Part shown: positions 20,557 through 47,122 of the stretch, in pieces | Numbering within the stretch: the stretch's first letter is position 1 | Layout: every line of letters starts with the position of its first letter | Sequence record: PZ445416.1 | Length of the DNA stretch: 50,192 bases | Reading direction: 5' to 3' (one strand) | From: a phage | The notes under the pieces: generated by a model | Seen by the model: the letters and a program-made list of their open reading frames with translations, nothing else | What the model was told of the DNA's origin: nothing | Databases searched by the model: none | Position numbers and translations under genes: made by a program

Positions 20557-20579
20557 GCCCCTTGCGGGGCTTTTCTTTT
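20557..20579. terminator. bidirectional terminator between late block and cor
   Basis: GCCCCTTGCGGGGC hairpin flanked by T-tract downstream; lies between convergent genes. Confidence 0.7.
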
Positions 20580-20805
20580 ATATCGAGCAATCGTGAGATT
20601 TGAAGTTTTTCTCTGATACATAGTTGAAGGAGAATGGGTATCCAGCACGCAATACCATCTCCTTTCCGCGCATCTTAGAGCCAAAAACGTAAACCGAGTA
20701 CTCCGCGCCACCTGATTCATAAATTGCCGTGCAAGTACGCTCAGGCATCGATGAGCAACCAGTCAGGATGAATGCCGAAGCGATAATGGTGATTAACTTT
20801 TTCAT
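20578..20805 (-). CDS. cor: Cor-like superinfection-exclusion lipoprotein
   Basis: 75 aa with lipoprotein signal MKKLITIIASAFILTGC; own near-consensus promoter; position after tail genes as in T1/phi80-type phages. Confidence 0.6.
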   Translation of the reverse strand: MKKLITIIASAFILTGCSSMPERTCTAIYESGGAEYSVYVFGSKMRGKEMVLRAGYPFSFNYVSEKNFKSHDCSI

Positions 20806-31539: not shown

Positions 31540-32691
31540 ATGTCACAATCTAAAATCACTACCGAGCAACTTATCGAAGAACGCATGAACGGACTTACAC
31601 TTCGCGAGATCGCGGAAAAGTACGGTATGCACATTCGCACGGTTGAAGCTCGCCACGCAAAATTGGCAAAAGAAGGCCACTTCCACGGTAACGAGCATGT
31701 CGCTAAGAACGTACCGGAAGGATTCATGGTAAAAGGTACATCAACGATGATTCGCGGAGATGGGACCGAGGTAGTGCGCTGGGTTAAAACCGATCAGGAC
31801 CGTGAGAAGATCGCGGCAATGATGGAAGCGGCGCGCATTGCATTCTGTGAAGACCTGCCGCGAGCAAAGCCAACCGAGCTACTAGCCTCGCAAGGGCTTA
31901 CGACAGCGATGGGTAAGTTGGCGCTCTATCCGGTGTTCGATCTTCATATTGGTGCGCTTGCTCATAAGCATGAATGCGGTGAGAACTATTCCACCGACGT
32001 AGCGGAAAAAGTGCTTAGCGACTTCTTTAATTACGCGATCGATATCGCGCCGAACGCAGAGAAGGCTGTTCTGTTAATCGGCGGCGACTTCCTTCACTCT
32101 GACGGCCTTGATGCAGTTACCCCGGCAAGTGGTCACGTTCTTGATCAGGACTCACGATACGCAAAATTAGTTCATGTTGCGATTCGTTCGGTACGCCGAG
32201 CCATCGACAAAATGCTTATGAAACACAAAGAAGTCGAGGTCCAGGTTATCGAAGGGAACCACGATCAGTCTGGGATGATTTGGCTGCGAGCTGCAATGTC
32301 GGCATATTATGAAGACGAGCCGCGAGTATTCGTTGACGTTAGTCCTATGATTCTGCATAAGACTCGTTGGGGAAATACCTTGCTGGGATACACTCACGGG
32401 CACACTATGAAAAAGGCAGACACGCGACTTGCAGCAATGGCGGCAGATTTCCGGTCAGACTTCGGTGAGAGCAAGTATGTGTATACTCATAGCGGTCACT
32501 GGCATCACCAGACAATCACTGAGCACTCGCTTGGTATTGATGAAGTACACGGTCAGTTAGGCGCGAAAGATGCATACGCCGCGCGAGGCGGGTGGCGCTC
32601 ATATCGCCAGGCGGCGGTAATAGTTTACGATAAACAGTTTGGTGAAATCGGTCGATTCATCTACCGTCCAGAAATGACAGGATCGCACTAA
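31540..32691 (+). CDS. metallophosphoesterase with N-terminal HTH domain
   Basis: N-terminal LTLREIAEKYGMHIRTVEARHAKL is HTH-like; calcineurin-type motifs GGDFLHSDG, EGNHDQ, GHTHG and GHWHH. Confidence 0.65.
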   Translation: MSQSKITTEQLIEERMNGLTLREIAEKYGMHIRTVEARHAKLAKEGHFHGNEHVAKNVPEGFMVKGTSTMIRGDGTEVVRWVKTDQDREKIAAMMEAARIAFCEDLPRAKPTELLASQGLTTAMGKLALYPVFDLHIGALAHKHECGENYSTDVAEKVLSDFFNYAIDIAPNAEKAVLLIGGDFLHSDGLDAVTPASGHVLDQDSRYAKLVHVAIRSVRRAIDKMLMKHKEVEVQVIEGNHDQSGMIWLRAAMSAYYEDEPRVFVDVSPMILHKTRWGNTLLGYTHGHTMKKADTRLAAMAADFRSDFGESKYVYTHSGHWHHQTITEHSLGIDEVHGQLGAKDAYAARGGWRSYRQAAVIVYDKQFGEIGRFIYRPEMTGSH

Positions 32692-32725
32692 TTGCTAAAG
32701 ATACCCGAATCCCTTCGGGTATAGT
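32683..32725 (+). promoter_or_regulatory. Box-A cassette
   Basis: TCGCACTAATTGCTA, 22 bp with perfect IR ATACCCGAA/TTCGGGTAT, TATAGT. Confidence 0.6.
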
Positions 32726-32754: not shown

Positions 32755-32931
32755 ATGAAACTAGTTAAGTGCATCCGAAATGACTCCAAAACACTTCCAT
32801 TCCGCGTAAATCAGATCTATAGTGTTGGTTATGATTTCGGTGGGGGATTATTTGAGATTCACGATGGTCGAGGTTCAGCAATCCAGGCTCCTCTGAACGG
32901 CAGCTATCTGGAATTTATTGCGATAGATTAA
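32755..32931 (+). CDS. small hypothetical protein (58 aa)
   Basis: ORF MKLVKCIRND..., absent from the supplied track; sits at the canonical distance downstream of Box-A cassette 32683-32725 with RBS AAAGAGGA. Confidence 0.4.
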   Translation: MKLVKCIRNDSKTLPFRVNQIYSVGYDFGGGLFEIHDGRGSAIQAPLNGSYLEFIAID

Positions 32932-33049
32932 CAATATCATTCATCACCTTACAGGCTGGCATGATTTACATGCTGGCCTTTTTGCGTTGTGTCAAATAAA
33001 TTTGAAGGTTAAAATCAACTCACTTGTTCAAAAAATATATGGTGAGATT

Positions 33050-33265
33050 ATGAAAGAATTTTTAACCGCAGCTACGTCTAGCACGGGCGGGGCTTCATTA
33101 GTGGGGGCGGCGACCGGGCAACTTTATATTGCTGGCGCTACATTCATTTGCTTTCTGCTTTTTGGTGCTTGGGGCGCATACTGGAAGTATCGTGATAGCA
33201 AGGCGATTCAGGAAGCGTTAAACGATGGCGATCTAAATAAGGCACTTAAGATCAGGGGGAGATAA
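33050..33265 (+). CDS. putative holin
   Basis: 71 aa with one strongly hydrophobic segment ([21 protein letters not shown]) and charged C-terminus; stop overlaps the endolysin start. Confidence 0.55.
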
Positions 33266-33753
33266 TGAGCTTAAAAAATAACGTTATAGGCGCATCGATC
33301 GGGGCTGCTTTGACGTTGACGCCTACCCTACTGGAACGAATCGAAGGGATAGAATACGAGGTGTATTACGATATCGCCGGAGTCCCTACCGTATGCAGCG
33401 GAATAACCGGGCCTGACGTCATACCTGGTAAGAAATACACTAAGCGAGAATGCGATGCATTGCTGATAAAACATATCGGCGTCGCTCAGCGATACGTTGA
33501 CAAAAAGGTGAATGTTGATATTCCGGTAACGATGCGCGCGTCACTGTACAGCTTCACTTTCAACGTTGGTACTGGCGCGTTCGGATCTTCTACAATGCTT
33601 AAGCTAATAAATCAGAGTAAGCACAAGGAAGCGTGCAATCAGTTATGGCGATGGGTATACTACTACAACCCAAAAACAAAAAAGCGAGAAGTGTCTAGAG
33701 GACTCAAGAACCGACGCGCTGAAGAATACGCGTATTGCGTTAAGGAATTATGA
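33265..33753 (+). CDS. endolysin (lysozyme-like muramidase)
   Basis: 162 aa; N-terminal [26 protein letters not shown] resembles the catalytic E...D...T region of GH24 phage lysozymes. Confidence 0.75.
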
Positions 33754-34154
33754 TGAAACTGAAGAAAACGTGCATTGCGATTGCAGTGGCTTTTGGTGTT
33801 ATTTCCCTATCCGGTTGCTCGACGGCATCTGCCCTGAGCGGTTTAATCGGATCTAAACCGGAAGTTACAGCACAAATCGGAGAGGAGAACACAAAGCAAT
33901 TAGCAGGAGTAACCGCAAAATCCGAAGATAAGCGAGATGTTAAAGTTGAGAAGTCCAATGTAGGAAAGATTGACTCTTCCTTGAAGAAGTCAATTGAAGT
34001 GTCAACCATTAAGGCTAACACGGTTAACGCTGAAAGCATCACAGTAACAAAACCGGAAAACTGGTACGATGCTATCGTTGGCTGGATTCTCGTTTTTATC
34101 GGTCTATTGCTGGTTTATTTTTCACTTCGTAAGGACGAAAAAAAGGAGGCGTAA
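33750..34154 (+). CDS. unimolecular spanin (lipoprotein with C-terminal transmembrane anchor)
   Basis: Lipobox LSGC after a signal peptide, plus C-terminal TM helix [13 protein letters not shown]; overlaps endolysin stop. Confidence 0.7.
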
Positions 34155-34168
34155 GCCTCCTTTCTTTT
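34138..34168. terminator. bidirectional terminator at lysis cassette end
   Basis: AAAAAAA, GGAGGCGTAAGCCTCC hairpin, TTTCTTTT; between convergent spanin and minus-strand early genes. Confidence 0.6.
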
Positions 34169-34382
34169 ATGCATCATCCCACATGTAACTTTCGTTCGTG
34201 AGTTTTGCGTATTCGCGAACTTCAATCTCACAGGTGTCTCCGTACATCTCAGCGACCTTCTTCTCGTTCGCTACCGCCGTTTCTTCATCCCATCCATCAG
34301 CCTTGCTGTAAATGGTAGGAATCTCACTGCTAGTGCCGTTAGAGTGGTTGTAAACGCGAACTACTAAAAATTTGTTAGCCAT
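34167..34382 (-). CDS. hypothetical protein
   Basis: Start moved to MANKF after AAGGAAAG; downstream of Box-A cassette 34420-34462. Confidence 0.5.
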   Translation of the reverse strand: MANKFLVVRVYNHSNGTSSEIPTIYSKADGWDEETAVANEKKVAEMYGDTCEIEVREYAKLTNESYMWDDA

Positions 34383-34419
34383 GATGCTTTCCTTCAGGTC
34401 GTTTCGTTTCGATGAAACA

Positions 34420-34462
34420 AATATACCCGATACGAGATCGGGTGTTTTAACAAAAAGTGCTA
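34420..34462 (-). promoter_or_regulatory. Box-A cassette (minus strand)
   Basis: Minus strand TAGCACTTTTTGTTA, 22 bp with IR CCCGAT/ATCGGG, TATATT, leader CATCGAAACGAAACGA. Confidence 0.6.
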
Positions 34463-36624: not shown

Positions 36625-36628
36625 TTGG

Positions 36629-37045
36629 TTATAAGTATTTGGCCTCAAAGGTTGTGCCGTCTGCGATACTAAAACCAACCTCTTCGCGAAATAAGGTCCA
36701 GCGACAACCATCTTCATCAAAGATGTAACCAGCTACGCCACCGAGAGCGCGACCGCTTTCAACCTGGTAACGCTTGCCAACTTTGAATGATTTTTTCATT
36801 GGGTTGCGATGGTCAAGCCCGGTGCACTTGAGCGTCTTTGTTTTCAACTCAGTGAACTTCGCGAAGAAGATTTCATCAGATCCGTGAATCTGTAATTCAT
36901 CATGCTTTTCAAGTTTTAAATACTTCCCGCATTTTAATTTTACTTCGCGAGTGCCATCATAGCGCTCACGACCTTTGTATAGGTTGTTTACTTCAAATCC
37001 TGTGATTTTATCTGCGTGAGTGCATTTCAGTTTGATGGATTTCAT
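36629..37045 (-). CDS. hypothetical protein
   Basis: 138 aa, RBS CAGGAG, downstream of Box-A cassette 37082-37124. Confidence 0.5.
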   Translation of the reverse strand: MKSIKLKCTHADKITGFEVNNLYKGRERYDGTREVKLKCGKYLKLEKHDELQIHGSDEIFFAKFTELKTKTLKCTGLDHRNPMKKSFKVGKRYQVESGRALGGVAGYIFDEDGCRWTLFREEVGFSIADGTTFEAKYL

Positions 37046-41585: not shown

Positions 41586-42056
41586 ATGGCGACAATTACC
41601 GTATTCCTGGCTAAAGATGAGATTGATGGCGAAATGTCATTCTTCGCGTTTGAGCACAAGACCGGATCGCACTGGCACATGTACAGTCACTACACGGTTA
41701 TTGATATCAACTCATACGCTTGCGATTCGCTAAATGAAAAACTTGGTCGATTCATTGAGCATGTTAAATTAAGAGATGGTGGCGAGTGGAATGATAAGCA
41801 TGAAGGTCGACGCATGTGTGACATGATTGATCCTGTTTATCTGGAGTCGTTCGAGCTTGATGCTGATGTTGCCATTAAGGTGAGAAAGTCGGGTGAATTG
41901 TTGCCAGGGATGCGTGTGCTGACTGGTTACTCGGGCCGTAAGGTGTGGCGCACTGTATCCAAGATTCGCCAGCGTTCGGCAACATGCTATAGCGTATTCT
42001 TTGATGATGGTTGGAATATGATTTCCGGCAGTGAGGTAAAGTATCTCACCAAATAG
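41586..42056 (+). CDS. hypothetical protein
   Basis: 156 aa; stop TAG is the first triplet of Box A at 42054. Confidence 0.5.
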   Translation: MATITVFLAKDEIDGEMSFFAFEHKTGSHWHMYSHYTVIDINSYACDSLNEKLGRFIEHVKLRDGGEWNDKHEGRRMCDMIDPVYLESFELDADVAIKVRKSGELLPGMRVLTGYSGRKVWRTVSKIRQRSATCYSVFFDDGWNMISGSEVKYLTK

Positions 42057-42096
42057 CACGAATTGTTAAAACCGGATCGGGGTATCTTGCTATAGT
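42054..42096 (+). promoter_or_regulatory. Box-A cassette
   Basis: TAGCACGAATTGTTA, 22 bp with IR GGGGTA/TACCCC, TGcTATAGT. Confidence 0.6.
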
Positions 42097-42134
42097 TACC
42101 CCATCAAAACGAGATACCAATCAGAGGATTCACC

Positions 42135-42365
42135 ATGTCAATCGTCAAGAACCAACAAGCCATCGACTCAACCAGCCACAACCGCTTTGCTATTTTCATC
42201 ACATCTATAGGTCGCCGATTTGCAGTTAAGGCCGCGCCTGGTGGATACAAAACATACATGGAGGATAACGGGAAATGGGTGTGGTGCGAAAACCTAGCCA
42301 ACTTCCTGGTATGGAACGCAGACCTGCAAGGATTCGATGATATCAGCACTTTAATTGAGGAGTAA
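42135..42365 (+). CDS. hypothetical protein
   Basis: 76 aa, leader CCAATCAGAGGA. Confidence 0.5.
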   Translation: MSIVKNQQAIDSTSHNRFAIFITSIGRRFAVKAAPGGYKTYMEDNGKWVWCENLANFLVWNADLQGFDDISTLIEE

Positions 42366-42371
42366 ATAATA

Positions 42372-42599
42372 ATGCCACGTTACAGTAACCTAACCAAACT
42401 AGTCCGCGTCAACGGGCATATGATCCCGGCTAAATCTACTCACTGCGCGAAAGGCGCAAAGCACGGATTATATTTCAAGTGGCGCGGTCAATGGAACTTC
42501 ACGGCGGTGAGCAATTTTTACATGCGAGTTCCAGGTGATGACCCGCAATCGGTAGTAGAAAACTCAATAGGTGACAACAAGATCGAGGTGCTAAAATGA
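42372..42599 (+). CDS. hypothetical protein
   Basis: 75 aa, basic and Cys/His-containing. Confidence 0.45.
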   Translation: MPRYSNLTKLVRVNGHMIPAKSTHCAKGAKHGLYFKWRGQWNFTAVSNFYMRVPGDDPQSVVENSIGDNKIEVLK

Positions 42600-42706
42600 A
42601 CTTCAATACAATAGCTCTATGGTCTGCCGTCTGGTTCTTCTGCATGGGTCACGTTATGGTCGGCATCGTGGTAATGCTTCTCCTGTGCGCGGGGGCGTTC
42701 GAATGA
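42596..42706 (+). CDS. putative small membrane peptide (36 aa)
   Basis: ATGA overlap with upstream stop; almost entirely hydrophobic (ALWSAVWFFCMGHVMVGIVVMLLL); absent from the supplied track. Confidence 0.35.
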   Translation: MNFNTIALWSAVWFFCMGHVMVGIVVMLLLCAGAFE

Positions 42707-42876
42707 TGCGAATATTGATTTGCATGATGGCGGCTGTCGCCCTGGCTATCCTGGTAGTGTCCGGCTGCGGCGAGGTCAAAGAGCGATGCCATGAAACCGG
42801 GAGCCAGGCTACTACTTTCGTGATGGTTGGCAACGTTTTGCTACCAATCACATCAAATGAAATCACTTGCGAATAG
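42703..42876 (+). CDS. putative small lipoprotein (57 aa)
   Basis: Start MMRIL overlaps the previous stop; signal peptide with lipobox-like VVSGC. Confidence 0.4.
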   Translation: MMRILICMMAAVALAILVVSGCGEVKERCHETGSQATTFVMVGNVLLPITSNEITCE

Positions 42877-43707: not shown

Positions 43708-44214
43708 ATGTTAAAATTAGAATACGTAAAATTCCCGATTAAATTTATCAGCCTGGGTTGCGGTGAAATTACACTCACCAGTGAAGATAAAGGCAAGTGG
43801 GCCACTGATGAGGTGTCTCAGCTTAAGTTGGATTGGTTTATCAATCGGCACAATGAAGTAAATCCTGAAAACTCAGCCAAGAAGGATTACCATTACATTA
43901 TTAGTGGTAGTCAGGATGCGTACGGAAAGTATGATGGTTGGAAAACTGATCGATCCATCTTCCACCCCGCAAAGCCAGAAATTAAACCGATGTTACAATG
44001 CACTCAGATCGAGAACATGCCATTGAGCGCTACGCTAAAGGGCGTCCAACTTGATAGCGAATCCTGGACCGAGATTACCGCCACACCTAAAACTATTGAG
44101 GTGCATGATGATGTAGTGATTCTCCTATTGCATTACGGCAGCTTTAAGCACAAAACGGTATCAGGTGAAATAAGCATTAAGCGCGGAACACTTGTACGCT
44201 ATGAGGTGAAATAA
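43708..44214 (+). CDS. hypothetical protein
   Basis: 168 aa; RBS AAGAGGAAAG. Confidence 0.5.
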   Translation: MLKLEYVKFPIKFISLGCGEITLTSEDKGKWATDEVSQLKLDWFINRHNEVNPENSAKKDYHYIISGSQDAYGKYDGWKTDRSIFHPAKPEIKPMLQCTQIENMPLSATLKGVQLDSESWTEITATPKTIEVHDDVVILLLHYGSFKHKTVSGEISIKRGTLVRYEVK

Positions 44215-45980: not shown

Positions 45981-46427
45981 ATGAAACACTTAATCTGCAT
46001 TGAAGCGCCTAACGATGAATACACTCTGCACGGCATTGGAATGTTCAAAGGTCACTACATGACAGCAAGTATTCATGATTCGCGTTGCGTCAATGGCGAT
46101 CTGATGATTACGTCAAAAGAAGTAAATCCGTACATTATGCAGAATCTTGGCAATAACGAATATATGGCCTATGGATGCAACGCAGTGTATAAGCACATTA
46201 AGATCCGCAAGCGCGTCGTGCGTGCATTCAAGAAGATTGCAATGAAGTACTGGAAGATGAGCAAGAAGGACGCCGGGCGCTGGGCGCGTAATGTTGCTGA
46301 CGCATACTTCTACCGTAACGGTGAGTCCTGCTACTTCCTGATCGATGAAATTATGGAAAACTACGGCGGCGACTTCAGCCAGTGCAGCTTTGACGATTGG
46401 GTTAATTATGAGATCAGTTGCTGGTAA
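45981..46427 (+). CDS. hypothetical protein
   Basis: Start moved to MKHLI after ACGAGGAAACG; Cys/Tyr/Trp-rich; stop followed immediately by Box A at 46428. Confidence 0.5.
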   Translation: MKHLICIEAPNDEYTLHGIGMFKGHYMTASIHDSRCVNGDLMITSKEVNPYIMQNLGNNEYMAYGCNAVYKHIKIRKRVVRAFKKIAMKYWKMSKKDAGRWARNVADAYFYRNGESCYFLIDEIMENYGGDFSQCSFDDWVNYEISCW

Positions 46428-46470
46428 TAGCACGAATTGCTAAAACTTGCTCAAGGGTATTTGATAGAAT
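46428..46470 (+). promoter_or_regulatory. Box-A cassette upstream of HAD phosphatase gene
   Basis: TAGCACGAATTGCTA, 22 bp, TGaTAGAAT, leader CCAATCAGAGGA. Confidence 0.6.
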
Positions 46471-46510
46471 GCCCTTCGTTGAGTTAAGCAACCAATCAGA
46501 GGAATAAATC

Positions 46511-47122
46511 ATGGATAAAATTACCATTTGGGGACAGACAATCAACCTGTTTCTCGGCACGCGCCGCGTAGCAATCTTTGACTTTGATGGAACACTTAGC
46601 GATGGATCTGGTCGACTTCACCTGCTACCTACAAAGGATTTGCAATTAACTGAAAGCTGGTCCGAGTTTAACCGCGCGGCAATATTTGATAACCCAATCA
46701 AGAGTACGATTGAAGTGATGAACTCTATGTTTGCCGCTGGGTATCATGTGATCATTTTAACCGGGCGAAGTGATGAGGTGCGTTACGCATCTGAGTTATG
46801 GCTTAAGCATCACGGCGCTCGATATGATTACTTAGTCATGCGACCGCATACCGACAACCGCAAAGACACGGTAATGAAAGAAGAGGCAGTGCGCGCGATC
46901 GGCATTGAGAACATTCTGGCGGCCTGGGATGACTCACCGCAAATTATTCCATTATTCCGCTCGCTTGGAATAACAACTTACGCTGTAGTTGACTATGGCG
47001 ATAACGTTCACAATCATTTAAAATCTCACGGGGTAGATGAGGTTTGCAATCATGAACCATCTGAGCCGCTACCGCCATTTGGTGAGAAAATTTGCATTAA
47101 GTGCAAGGAGTTATTGAAGTGA
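46511..47122 (+). CDS. HAD-family phosphatase (polynucleotide 3'-phosphatase-like)
   Basis: N-terminal DxDGT motif (IFDFDGTL) typical of HAD phosphatases such as the T4 Pnkp phosphatase domain; C-terminal CxxC pair. Confidence 0.65.
   Translation: MDKITIWGQTINLFLGTRRVAIFDFDGTLSDGSGRLHLLPTKDLQLTESWSEFNRAAIFDNPIKSTIEVMNSMFAAGYHVIILTGRSDEVRYASELWLKHHGARYDYLVMRPHTDNRKDTVMKEEAVRAIGIENILAAWDDSPQIIPLFRSLGITTYAVVDYGDNVHNHLKSHGVDEVCNHEPSEPLPPFGEKICIKCKELLK

What the first reader, a model, noticed from the sequence alone, without database searches (positions are those of the whole stretch)
33050..34154. Lysis cassette uses a single-gene unimolecular spanin
After holin and lysozyme there is one ORF with an N-terminal lipoprotein signal (LSGC) and a C-terminal transmembrane helix, with no embedded or adjacent second spanin gene. 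One polypeptide therefore spans both membranes, the less common alternative to the two-component Rz/Rz1 system.
Basis: partly seen in the sequence, partly recalled or inferred. Interest (0 to 1): 0.35.

Follow-up and report, generated by a model that had tools for sequence, protein, structure and literature searches.

The report
T1-type single-protein spanin, already known
The last gene of this phage's lysis cassette encodes a single protein anchored in both bacterial membranes, and it is a close copy (78% identical) of the well-studied gp11 "unimolecular spanin" of coliphage T1, so the reading is right but nothing new.

Summary
The window is a complete T1-like siphophage genome (Drexlerviridae, Tunavirus-like), collinear with phage T1. 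Bases 33050-34154 hold three tightly coupled genes. The holin (33050-33265, 71 aa) is 100% identical to T1 gp13. The lysozyme-family endolysin (33265-33753, 162 aa) is 98% identical to T1 gp12. The third ORF (33753 or 33750 to 34154, 133/134 aa) is 78% identical over its full length to T1 gp11, the prototype unimolecular spanin. That ORF has an LSGC lipobox (Cys22, Ser at +2), an 81-residue cysteine-free periplasmic segment and a C-terminal transmembrane helix. In 18 relatives I found no conserved embedded or adjacent second spanin frame, and synonymous variation is high along most of the gene. A six-frame scan of the whole window found no other lipoprotein candidate that also has a transmembrane segment. 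A hairpin terminator and convergent genes follow the stop codon. The literature reports that T1 gene 11, with the same LSGC lipobox, complements a lambda Rz/Rz1 defect. Homologues occur in 1126 of 50,697 deposited phage records. Novelty: already known. Interest: low.

The parts
32953..32989 (+). Terminator-like hairpin plus T-run upstream of the lysis cassette. It closes the preceding unit (the DUF7244 gene at 32755-32931).
   Evidence: 11-pair stem with 6 G-C pairs, followed by TTTTTGCGTTG.
33050..33265 (+). Holin, 71 aa. The T1-family literature classes it as a class II pinholin. It has a weakly hydrophobic Gly/Ala-rich segment followed by the hydrophobic segment [16 protein letters not shown].
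   Evidence: phrog_2877 holin at E 1.9e-38. 100% identical to T1 ST13/gp13. Hydropathy. Pinholin assignment for the T1 family from PMC6139136 and PMC11447400.
33265..33753 (+). Endolysin, 162 aa, a T4-lysozyme-type muramidase with the E27-x8-D36-x5-T42 motif. It has a weakly hydrophobic N-terminal segment, [17 protein letters not shown], and is a predicted SAR endolysin.
   Evidence: PF00959 at E 3.8e-33. phrog_7 endolysin at E 2.8e-50. 98% identical to T1 gp12. The motif and N-terminal segment are read directly from the translation. 'Predicted SAR endolysin' for T1 Gp12 from PMC11447400.
33753..34154 (+). Unimolecular spanin, 133 aa (134 aa if the extra in-frame ATG at 33750 is used). Layout: signal peptide residues 1-21; lipobox LSGC with the lipidated Cys22; an 81-residue periplasmic segment without Cys; TMD at about residues 103-125; basic/acidic cytoplasmic tail RKDEKKEA.
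   Evidence: 78% identity to T1 gp11 over the full length, E 7e-76. phrog_1804 'Rz-like spanin' at E 9.9e-48. Lipobox and hydropathy. AlphaFold helix 102-132. Start codon comparison with T1.
34142..34173 (.). Intrinsic-terminator hairpin, AAAGGAGGC-GTAA-GCCTCCTTT followed by CTTTTATGCA, with the spanin stop codon in its loop. An A-run lies on the other side, so it probably also serves the convergent minus-strand genes.
   Evidence: and the sequence. The equivalent T1 position is annotated as a rho-independent terminator (T1 43966-43988).

Best explanation
The third gene of the cassette (33753-34154) encodes a T1 gp11-type unimolecular spanin.

Inferred pathway, by orthology with T1 gp11 and standard lipoprotein biogenesis:
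1. The precursor is exported by Sec and lipidated at Cys22 of the LSGC lipobox. Signal peptidase II then cleaves it.
2. [quoted passage not shown]
3. The C-terminal helix (about residues 103-125) stays in the inner membrane, with the charged tail in the cytoplasm. One polypeptide of about 81 periplasmic residues therefore threads through the peptidoglycan mesh and tethers both membranes.
4. The intact murein holds the protein in check during the latent period.
5. At lysis time the pinholin (33050-33265) depolarises the inner membrane. The membrane-tethered SAR endolysin (33265-33753) is released and degrades the wall.
6. The freed spanins diffuse laterally, oligomerise and collapse. This fuses the inner and outer membranes and removes the last barrier to virion release.

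Shown here: gene order, sequence features, orthology, and the absence of a second spanin frame. Taken from the literature on T1 gp11: complementation of lambda Rz/Rz1 and the need for the lipobox Cys. Inferred: the topology of this particular protein, and the fusion step itself, which remains a model even for T1.
For: - Orthology: 78% identity and 88% positives, with no gaps, to T1 gp11 over 133 of 133 residues.
- Synteny: the same holin-endolysin-spanin-terminator order as T1 ST13-ST12-ST11. The whole window is collinear with T1.
- Family hit: phrog_1804 'Rz-like spanin' at E 9.9e-48 across the whole profile.
- Protein features: lipobox LSGC, Ser at +2, no Cys in the periplasmic part, C-terminal TMD.
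- Conservation: these features hold across relatives down to 34% identity in five Drexlerviridae genera and in an Autographiviridae phage. G21, C22 and S23 are invariant.
- No second frame: no conserved alternate-frame ORF and no lipobox-bearing embedded frame in the window or any of 18 relatives. The one regex hit, MGGC at residue 4 of a 21-aa ORF in L017, has no signal peptide.
- Synonymous-site variability is 0.47-0.71 in eleven of twelve sliding windows along the gene, higher than in the holin (0.38) and endolysin (0.34). This argues against a hidden overlapping gene. The last window is 0.33 on only 9 sites and adjoins the terminator stem.
- Close relatives already annotate this gene as 'U-spanin', 'spanin' or 'Rz-like spanin'.
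- Literature: gp11 is the prototype u-spanin and complements the lambda RzRz1 defect. Its lipobox is LSGC. The Cys-to-Ser lipobox construct gp11AWAS appears only in the legend of the complementation figure (Fig. 10c); the passage read does not state its result. T1-family u-spanins sit in cassettes with a pinholin and a SAR endolysin (PMC6139136). The same description is given for TLS Gp69 and T1 Gp11 in PMC11447400.
Against: - No experiment on this particular allele exists. It differs from T1 gp11 at 29 of 133 positions.
- The beta-rich periplasmic fold reported for the family could not be confirmed. The single-sequence AlphaFold model has pLDDT below 55 across residues 25-100.
- No Pfam family matches. 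Only a sub-threshold NCBIfam 'spanin2' hit was found, 23.8 bits against an 80-bit cut-off.
- No solved structure matches.
- The membrane-fusion step is a model even for T1. PMC6139136 and PMC7830690 both say mechanistic data are lacking.
Confidence: 0.95

Rival explanations
1. The cassette really uses a two-component spanin. Its o-spanin or i-spanin partner is embedded in another frame of this ORF, or lies elsewhere in the genome and was overlooked.
For: - Embedded o-spanin genes are missed very often by annotation: 196 of 528 in PMC6139136.
- The window has short alternate-frame ORFs inside the gene: 33770-33856 (28 aa) and 34069-34188 (39 aa).
- A separate small lipoprotein gene exists at 42703-42876.
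Against: - None of the alternate-frame ORFs has a lipobox or signal peptide.
- The 39-aa ORF is missing in relatives whose spanin is 99% identical (L002, L003) and in T1.
- The 28-aa ORF is absent from all relatives outside the Tunavirus-like group.
- Synonymous sites vary freely along most of the gene.
- The main-frame protein itself carries both anchors, and there is no N-terminal-TMD coiled-coil protein in or next to the cassette.
- The 42703 lipoprotein is about 9 kb away in the early region and equals T1 ST72. Its neighbours show no hydrophobic N-terminal segment in their translations.
- T1 gene 11 alone substitutes for Rz plus Rz1 (PMC6139136).
Confidence: 0.02
2. The ORF is a membrane lipoprotein with a different job, for example superinfection exclusion or receptor blocking like Cor or Llp. 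On this view it merely sits next to the lysis genes, and outer-membrane disruption is done by something else.
For: - T1-like phages do encode small lipoproteins with exclusion functions, such as Cor at 20578-20805.
- Spanin-less phages that use other outer-membrane disruptors exist (bioRxiv 10.1101/515445, listed).
Against: - The ORF is translationally coupled to the endolysin and is the last gene of the cassette.
- It is an ortholog of a protein reported to complement the lambda spanin defect (PMC6139136).
- The dual-anchor architecture is conserved across distant relatives, and the gene stays linked to holin and endolysin genes even where the gene order is rearranged, as in Minorna.
Confidence: 0.02
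3. This allele is a decayed or non-functional copy. The spanin is far more diverged from T1's than its neighbours are, which could reflect relaxed constraint.
For: 45 of 133 codons vary at the amino-acid level among 12 close relatives, against 7 of 162 in the endolysin and 2 of 71 in the holin.
Against: - The reading frame is intact in all 12 relatives and the length is fixed at 133 codons. One relative, L005, has a sense codon in place of the stop and reads on.
- The lipobox, TMD and a set of periplasmic residues (A40, Q41, G43, N46, K48, G52, S68, D74, S76, K79, A93) are invariant down to 34% identity.
- Proteins identical at 99% occur in independently isolated lytic phages.
- Spanins are reported to be an extremely diverse class in general (PMC6139136).
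Confidence: 0.01

Closest known systems
Phage T1 gp11 (ST11, YP_003934.1), the prototype unimolecular spanin
   Same: - 133 aa in both, with 78% identity and no gaps.
- Identical signal-peptide end and lipobox ([16 protein letters not shown]).
- C-terminal TMD and the KKEA tail.
- The same position after gp13 holin and gp12 endolysin, followed by the same terminator.

   Different: - 29 substitutions, concentrated in the periplasmic segment (for example LIGSKPEV against LLSDSPDV, and KVEKSNV against KVSDSNI) and in the TMD.
- T1 has a Cys inside the TMD (C110) that the window allele lacks.
- The window has an extra in-frame ATG one codon upstream that T1 lacks.
Spanins of near-identical T1-like phages (vB_EcoS_SH2, Eco_BIFF, SH6, CLB_P3, ISF002)
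   Same: 92-99.3% protein identity and the same cassette. RefSeq and GenBank annotate the gene as 'Rz-like spanin', 'spanin' or 'U-spanin'.
   Different: Essentially nothing. Some GenBank records still call it 'hypothetical protein' or 'lipoprotein'.
Lambda Rz/Rz1 two-component spanin
   Same: The same role, as the last step of Gram-negative lysis. The same overall topology of the assembled unit, with a lipid anchor in the outer membrane and a TMD in the inner membrane. The same position as the last gene of the lysis cassette. T1 gp11 can replace it functionally (PMC6139136).
   Different: - One polypeptide instead of two, and no embedded +1-frame gene.
- The TMD is C-terminal rather than N-terminal.
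- No periplasmic cysteines, so no disulfide-linked dimers.
- The periplasmic domain is reported as beta-strand-rich rather than coiled-coil or proline-rich.
- No detectable sequence similarity (PMC6139136).
gp11-family u-spanins of Drulisvirus podophages (Minorna, KP34) and Webervirus Klebsiella phages
   Same: The same family at 35-41% identity, with the same lipobox-plus-C-terminal-TMD architecture and the conserved SALTGLxGSKPExxAQxGxEN motif.
   Different: In Minorna the gene order is spanin-holin-endolysin, not holin-endolysin-spanin. The virion morphotype and host also differ.

Membership tests
T1 gp11 u-spanin family (Kongari et al. 2018, PMC6139136) | At least 40% sequence identity over at least 40% of the length to a family member | tested here: met
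   78% identity over 100% of the length to T1 gp11, E 7e-76. phrog_1804 at E 9.9e-48.
T1 gp11 u-spanin family | N-terminal outer-membrane lipoprotein signal: a lipobox, with no Asp at +2 | tested here: met
   [21 protein letters not shown]|CST. The lipobox is LSGC, identical to the one named for gp11 in PMC6139136, with Ser at +2. The test used a regular expression and hydropathy, not LipoP or SignalP.
T1 gp11 u-spanin family | A single C-terminal transmembrane domain | tested here: met
   [22 protein letters not shown] followed by RKDEKKEA. The KD17 maximum is 2.69 at residue 107. The AlphaFold model has a helix at 102-132 with pLDDT 77-84.
T1 gp11 u-spanin family | No cysteine in the periplasmic domain | tested here: met
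   The only Cys residues are C7 in the signal peptide and C22, the lipidation site.
T1 gp11 u-spanin family | Located in a lysis cassette with holin and endolysin genes (pinholin plus SAR endolysin in the T1 family) | tested here: met
   The gene overlaps the endolysin stop codon. The holin is 100% and the endolysin 98% identical to T1's. The pinholin and SAR character rests on weak hydrophobic segments seen in the sequence and on the literature (PMC6139136, PMC11447400); it was not tested experimentally.
T1 gp11 u-spanin family | Periplasmic domain dominated by beta-strands after a short helix | tested here: inconclusive
   The single-sequence AlphaFold model is of low confidence there, with pLDDT 45-54 and no strands called. 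Alternating polar and apolar residues, as in [21 protein letters not shown], are compatible with strands (read by eye).
T1 gp11 u-spanin family | Complements a lambda Rz/Rz1 lysis defect, with function dependent on the lipobox Cys | not testable with these tools
   Complementation is reported for T1 gp11 in PMC6139136. The Cys-to-Ser lipobox variant is listed only in a figure legend there, with no stated result. Neither has been done for this allele.
T1 gp11 u-spanin family | A single gene: no embedded, overlapped or adjacent partner spanin gene | tested here: met
   No conserved or lipobox-bearing alternate-frame ORF in the window or 18 relatives. No sustained dip in synonymous variability. 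A terminator and convergent genes lie downstream. The whole-window lipoprotein scan found no other candidate.
Two-component Rz/Rz1-type spanin | An i-spanin with an N-terminal TMD and a coiled-coil periplasmic domain, plus a separate o-spanin lipoprotein gene (embedded, overlapped or adjacent) | tested here: not met
   The only TMD of the protein outside its signal peptide is C-terminal. No second lipoprotein frame was found.

The most novel reading that the evidence does not exclude
The most novel reading that remains open concerns evolution, not function. The spanin is a local hotspot of divergence and allele exchange inside an otherwise near-invariant cassette.

- Protein identity to T1 is 78% for the spanin, against 100% for the holin and 98% for the endolysin.
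- Two allele groups are visible. A 'LIGSKPEV...' type is shared with SH2 and Eco_BIFF. A 'LLSDSPDV...' type is shared by T1, JMPW2 and IME18.
- These groups do not follow whole-genome relatedness. IME18 is the best 24-kb match to the window yet carries the T1-type allele.

This could mean that the periplasmic and TMD parts of u-spanins are tuned to host envelope properties and are swapped by recombination.
Probability: 0.3. Interest if true: 0.15.

Novelty: already known. Interest (0 to 1): 0.07.

Why it matters
It matters little beyond correct annotation. The gene should be labelled 'unimolecular spanin (T1 gp11 family)' with its start at 33753, and the cassette described as pinholin, SAR endolysin and u-spanin. 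The family remains of general interest because how a beta-rich single-chain tether would fuse two membranes is still unresolved and no structure exists. This window adds only one more natural allele to a family already present in more than a thousand deposited phage genomes.

Tried and rejected
- **Embedded or overlapping second gene.** I listed all same-strand alternate-frame ORFs of at least 20 aa in the window gene and 18 relatives. None has a lipoprotein signal and none is positionally conserved beyond near-identical genomes. Sliding-window synonymous variability showed no sustained trough. Rejected.
- **Separated two-component spanin elsewhere.** A six-frame lipoprotein scan of the whole window returned only Cor, the spanin, a 57-aa lipoprotein of unknown function (phrog_8628, equal to T1 ST72) whose neighbours show no TMD in their translations, and two weak non-genic hits. 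Rejected.
- **Pfam.** No family matches the spanin.
- **NCBIfam.** Only a sub-threshold 'spanin2' match.
- **PDB sequence search.** Nothing meaningful.
- **Single-sequence AlphaFold.** It was informative only for the two terminal helices. The periplasmic part is of low confidence, so I ran no fold search.
- **Primary experimental papers.** Kongari et al. 2018 J Virol (PMC6206483) and Summer et al. 2007 (PMID 17900620) are not held in the library. Their results are cited only as relayed by PMC6139136, PMC7830690, PMC9636201 and PMC11447400.
- **Large protein-database searches.** I deliberately did not spend them on the search for homologous proteins or the search of protein representatives, because orthology to T1 gp11 was already decisive.

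Full report
**Observation**

Bases 33050-34154 carry three same-strand, translationally coupled ORFs.

- ORF 1 runs from ATG 33050 to TAA 33265 and encodes 71 aa. The 92-aa TTG-started version in the ORF list (from 32987) is only the mechanical upstream extension.
- ORF 2 runs from 33265 to 33753 and encodes 162 aa. Its ATG shares a base with the first gene's stop codon (TAATG).
- ORF 3 runs from 33750 or 33753 to 34154. Two consecutive ATGs overlap the second gene's TGA (ATGATGA).

PHROGs assigns ORF 1 to phrog_2877 (holin) at E 1.9e-38. ORF 2 matches phrog_7 (endolysin) and Pfam PF00959 (Phage_lysozyme) at E 3.8e-33. ORF 3 matches phrog_1804 ('Rz-like spanin') at E 9.9e-48 over the whole profile.

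- Signal peptide: a basic n-region and a hydrophobic h-region ending in the lipobox L-S-G-C, with Cys22 counted from the second ATG.
- Ser at +2, which by the established Lol sorting rule means outer-membrane sorting rather than inner-membrane retention.
- An 81-residue hydrophilic segment rich in Ser, Lys, Thr, Glu and Val, with no cysteine.
- A C-terminal hydrophobic stretch, [22 protein letters not shown], with a 17-residue Kyte-Doolittle mean of 2.69.
- The charged tail RKDEKKEA.

A single-sequence AlphaFold2 model folds residues 102-132 as one helix at pLDDT 77-84 and residues 4-19 as the signal-peptide helix. Everything between is of low confidence.

**Is it more than chance?**

I scanned all six frames of the 50,192-base window for lipoprotein signals. 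The criteria were a basic residue in the n-region, a hydrophobic core, no acidic residue before the lipobox, and the Cys at residue 13-36. This gave six candidate ORFs. Only ORF 3 also has a downstream segment of transmembrane hydrophobicity. The other credible lipoproteins are Cor (20578-20805, minus strand; phrog_1119 at E 1.1e-29) and a 57-aa protein of unknown function at 42703-42876 (phrog_8628).

**What the window is**

The cassette DNA is about 95% identical to the T1-like coliphages and Shigella phages Eco_BIFF, phiD2-2, SH6, CLB_P3 and ISF002. A 24-kb stretch is 91-93% identical to IME18 and the Sfin phages. The whole window is collinear with phage T1 (NC_005833), starting at the large terminase gene. 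So the window is a complete genome of a Tunavirus-like member of the Drexlerviridae.

**Orthology with T1**

T1's annotated cassette is ST13 holin, ST12 endolysin and ST11 'Rz-like spanin', followed by a rho-independent terminator and convergent genes. The window's proteins are 100%, 98% and 78% identical to these three, each over the full length without gaps. T1 has ATA where the window has its first ATG (AACTATAATGAAAC against AATTATGATGAAAC). The conserved start is therefore the second ATG, 33753, which gives 133 aa as in T1. The AAGGA Shine-Dalgarno element lies 8 nt upstream of it.

**The second-gene test**

I tested this in four ways.

1. I extracted the orthologous gene from 11 close relatives (78-99% protein identity, IMG/VR loci L002-L012). 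I added six distant ones (34-50% identity): BEK12B, tonnikala, CS01, ABTNL-2, Minorna and AHS24.
2. In every one, the main frame keeps a lipobox (LSGC, VSGC or LTGC), a small residue at +2 and a C-terminal TMD. The only cysteines after the lipidation site fall inside the TMD.
3. Same-strand alternate-frame ORFs are 20-80 aa, have no lipoprotein signal and shift or vanish between relatives.
   - The 39-aa ORF at window 34069-34188 is absent from L002 and L003, whose spanins are 99% identical, and from T1.
   - The 28-aa GTG ORF at 33770-33856 exists only in the Tunavirus-like group.
   - The one regex hit, MGGC in a 21-aa ORF of L017, has no signal peptide.
4. Among 12 close sequences, the fraction of amino-acid-invariant degenerate codons showing synonymous variation is 0.52 for the spanin gene. 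It ranges from 0.47 to 0.71 in eleven of the twelve 20-codon windows along the gene.
   - The last window is 0.33 on only 9 sites and adjoins the terminator stem.
   - The holin value is 0.38 and the endolysin value 0.34.
   - An overlapping functional frame would depress this value, and no sustained dip is seen.

Downstream, the stop codon lies in the loop of a 9-bp hairpin followed by a T-run (34142-34173). The next ORFs are on the minus strand. Upstream of the holin there is only a 58-aa DUF7244 protein without hydrophobic segments, followed by another terminator-like hairpin.

The small lipoprotein at 42703-42876 lies about 9 kb away in the early region. It is 89% identical to T1 ST72 (T1 2099-2272), and the translations of its neighbours show no hydrophobic N-terminal segment. 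It is not a separated o-spanin with an i-spanin partner.

**Mechanism**

What follows rests on the literature for the ortholog and on general lipoprotein biology, not on experiments with this allele.

- PMC6139136 (Kongari et al. [quoted passage not shown]
- The same paper reports that gene 11 complements the lambda RzRz1 lysis defect, and that gp11 is the prototype u-spanin with the wild-type lipobox LSGC.
- A gp11 variant with an AWAC lipobox still complements. A Cys-to-Ser lipobox construct, gp11AWAS, appears in the legend of that figure, but the passage I read does not state its result.
- The same paper reports that the gp11 family is the largest u-spanin family, with 28 of 58 members.
- It also reports that no u-spanin has a periplasmic cysteine, and that the periplasmic domain is predicted as a short helix followed by four or more beta-strands.
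- All T1-family members except two sit in cassettes with a pinholin and a SAR endolysin.
- PMC11447400 likewise calls the T1 holin a class II pinholin and T1 Gp12 a predicted SAR endolysin.

The window's sequences are compatible with this picture.

- The holin has a Gly/Ala-rich, weakly hydrophobic first segment and a strongly hydrophobic second one.
- The endolysin begins with the weakly hydrophobic [17 protein letters not shown].
- The endolysin carries the T4-lysozyme-type E27-x8-D36-x5-T42 motif (read from the sequence).

The working model, relayed by PMC6139136, PMC7830690 and PMC9636201, is as follows. The u-spanin tethers the inner and outer membranes through the murein mesh and is held in check by intact peptidoglycan. 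After endolysin action it oligomerises and collapses, fusing the two membranes. Both PMC6139136 and PMC7830690 stress that this last step lacks direct mechanistic evidence.

**Comparison and membership**

The ORF meets every testable defining feature of the T1 gp11 family:

- sequence identity to a family member;
- lipobox;
- C-terminal TMD;
- no periplasmic Cys;
- cassette context;
- single-gene status.

The beta-rich fold was inconclusive with the one cheap model I ran, and complementation cannot be tested with these tools. The ORF fails the defining features of two-component Rz/Rz1 systems, although it works like them.

Pfam has no model for this family. NCBIfam gives only a sub-threshold 'spanin2' hit of 23.8 bits against a cut-off of 80. 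No solved structure is related by sequence.

The family is common. tblastn finds homologues in 1126 of 50,697 deposited phage records, mostly Klebsiella and Escherichia phages. These include Autographiviridae podophages such as Minorna and KP34, where the gene order is spanin-holin-endolysin. Many records already label the gene 'U-spanin'.

**Verdict**

The feature is an ortholog of the founding member of its class, with 99.3%-identical proteins already in GenBank (vB_EcoS_SH2). It is therefore already known.

The only mildly interesting residue is evolutionary. The spanin is much more diverged than its two cassette partners, and its alleles fall into two groups that do not track whole-genome similarity. 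This hints at recombinational exchange or fast adaptation of this gene.

Noticed in passing
window 33753-34154 compared with 33050-33753: The spanin is a local divergence hotspot. It is 78% identical to T1 at the protein level, against 100% for the holin and 98% for the endolysin. Among 12 close relatives, 45 of 133 spanin codons vary at the amino-acid level, against 7 of 162 in the endolysin and 2 of 71 in the holin. Two allele groups appear: a LIGSKPEV type and a T1-like LLSDSPDV type. They do not follow whole-genome similarity, since IME18 is the best 24-kb match yet has the T1-type allele. This suggests recombinational allele exchange.
   Followed up: partly
window 33750-33755: There are two consecutive in-frame ATGs at the spanin start. 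T1 has ATA in place of the first, so the conserved start is 33753. Gene callers that take the longest ORF will give 134 aa.
   Followed up: yes
window 42703-42876 (+): A small predicted lipoprotein of 57 aa with lipobox VSGC and two Cys in its 35-residue mature part. It matches phrog_8628 (unknown function) and is 89% identical to T1 ST72. It lies in the early region and its translated neighbours show no TMD. Its function is unknown and it is not part of the lysis cassette.
   Followed up: partly
window 20578-20805 (-): A Cor superinfection-exclusion lipoprotein homologue (phrog_1119 at E 1.1e-29) with lipobox LTGC. It is in the same position as T1 ST30.
   Followed up: partly
window 34166-34461; ORF 34170-34382 (-): About 300 bp immediately after the spanin terminator has no counterpart in T1. 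It encodes a 71-aa acidic protein (MANKFLVVRVYNHS...; phrog_27210, unknown function). A terminator-like hairpin lies on the minus strand at 34443-34425.
   Followed up: partly
window 32676-32718 and 36626-36631: Compared with T1, the window lacks two HNH homing-endonuclease genes. T1 ST15 (T1 42028-42510) lies just upstream of the lysis cassette, and T1 ST8 (T1 46085-46624) is the other. In the window only 42-bp and 5-bp junctions remain.
   Followed up: partly
window 32953-32989 and 32990-33049: A strong terminator-like hairpin sits only about 70 bp upstream of the holin start, and no sigma-70 consensus promoter was detected between it and the holin gene. How the cassette is transcribed, whether by read-through or from a non-consensus late promoter, was not resolved.
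   Followed up: no
window 1-50192: The window appears to be a complete T1-like genome written to start at the large terminase gene. Window position 1 corresponds to T1 8945, and the window is collinear with T1 throughout.
   Followed up: partly
L013 (IMG/VR copy of phage ADB-2), 1501-1898: The ADB-2 spanin homologue matches over one base fewer than the others. This is consistent with the frameshift or sequencing error that PMC6139136 proposes to explain why ADB-2's spanin homologue lacks an N-terminal lipoylation signal.
   Followed up: no
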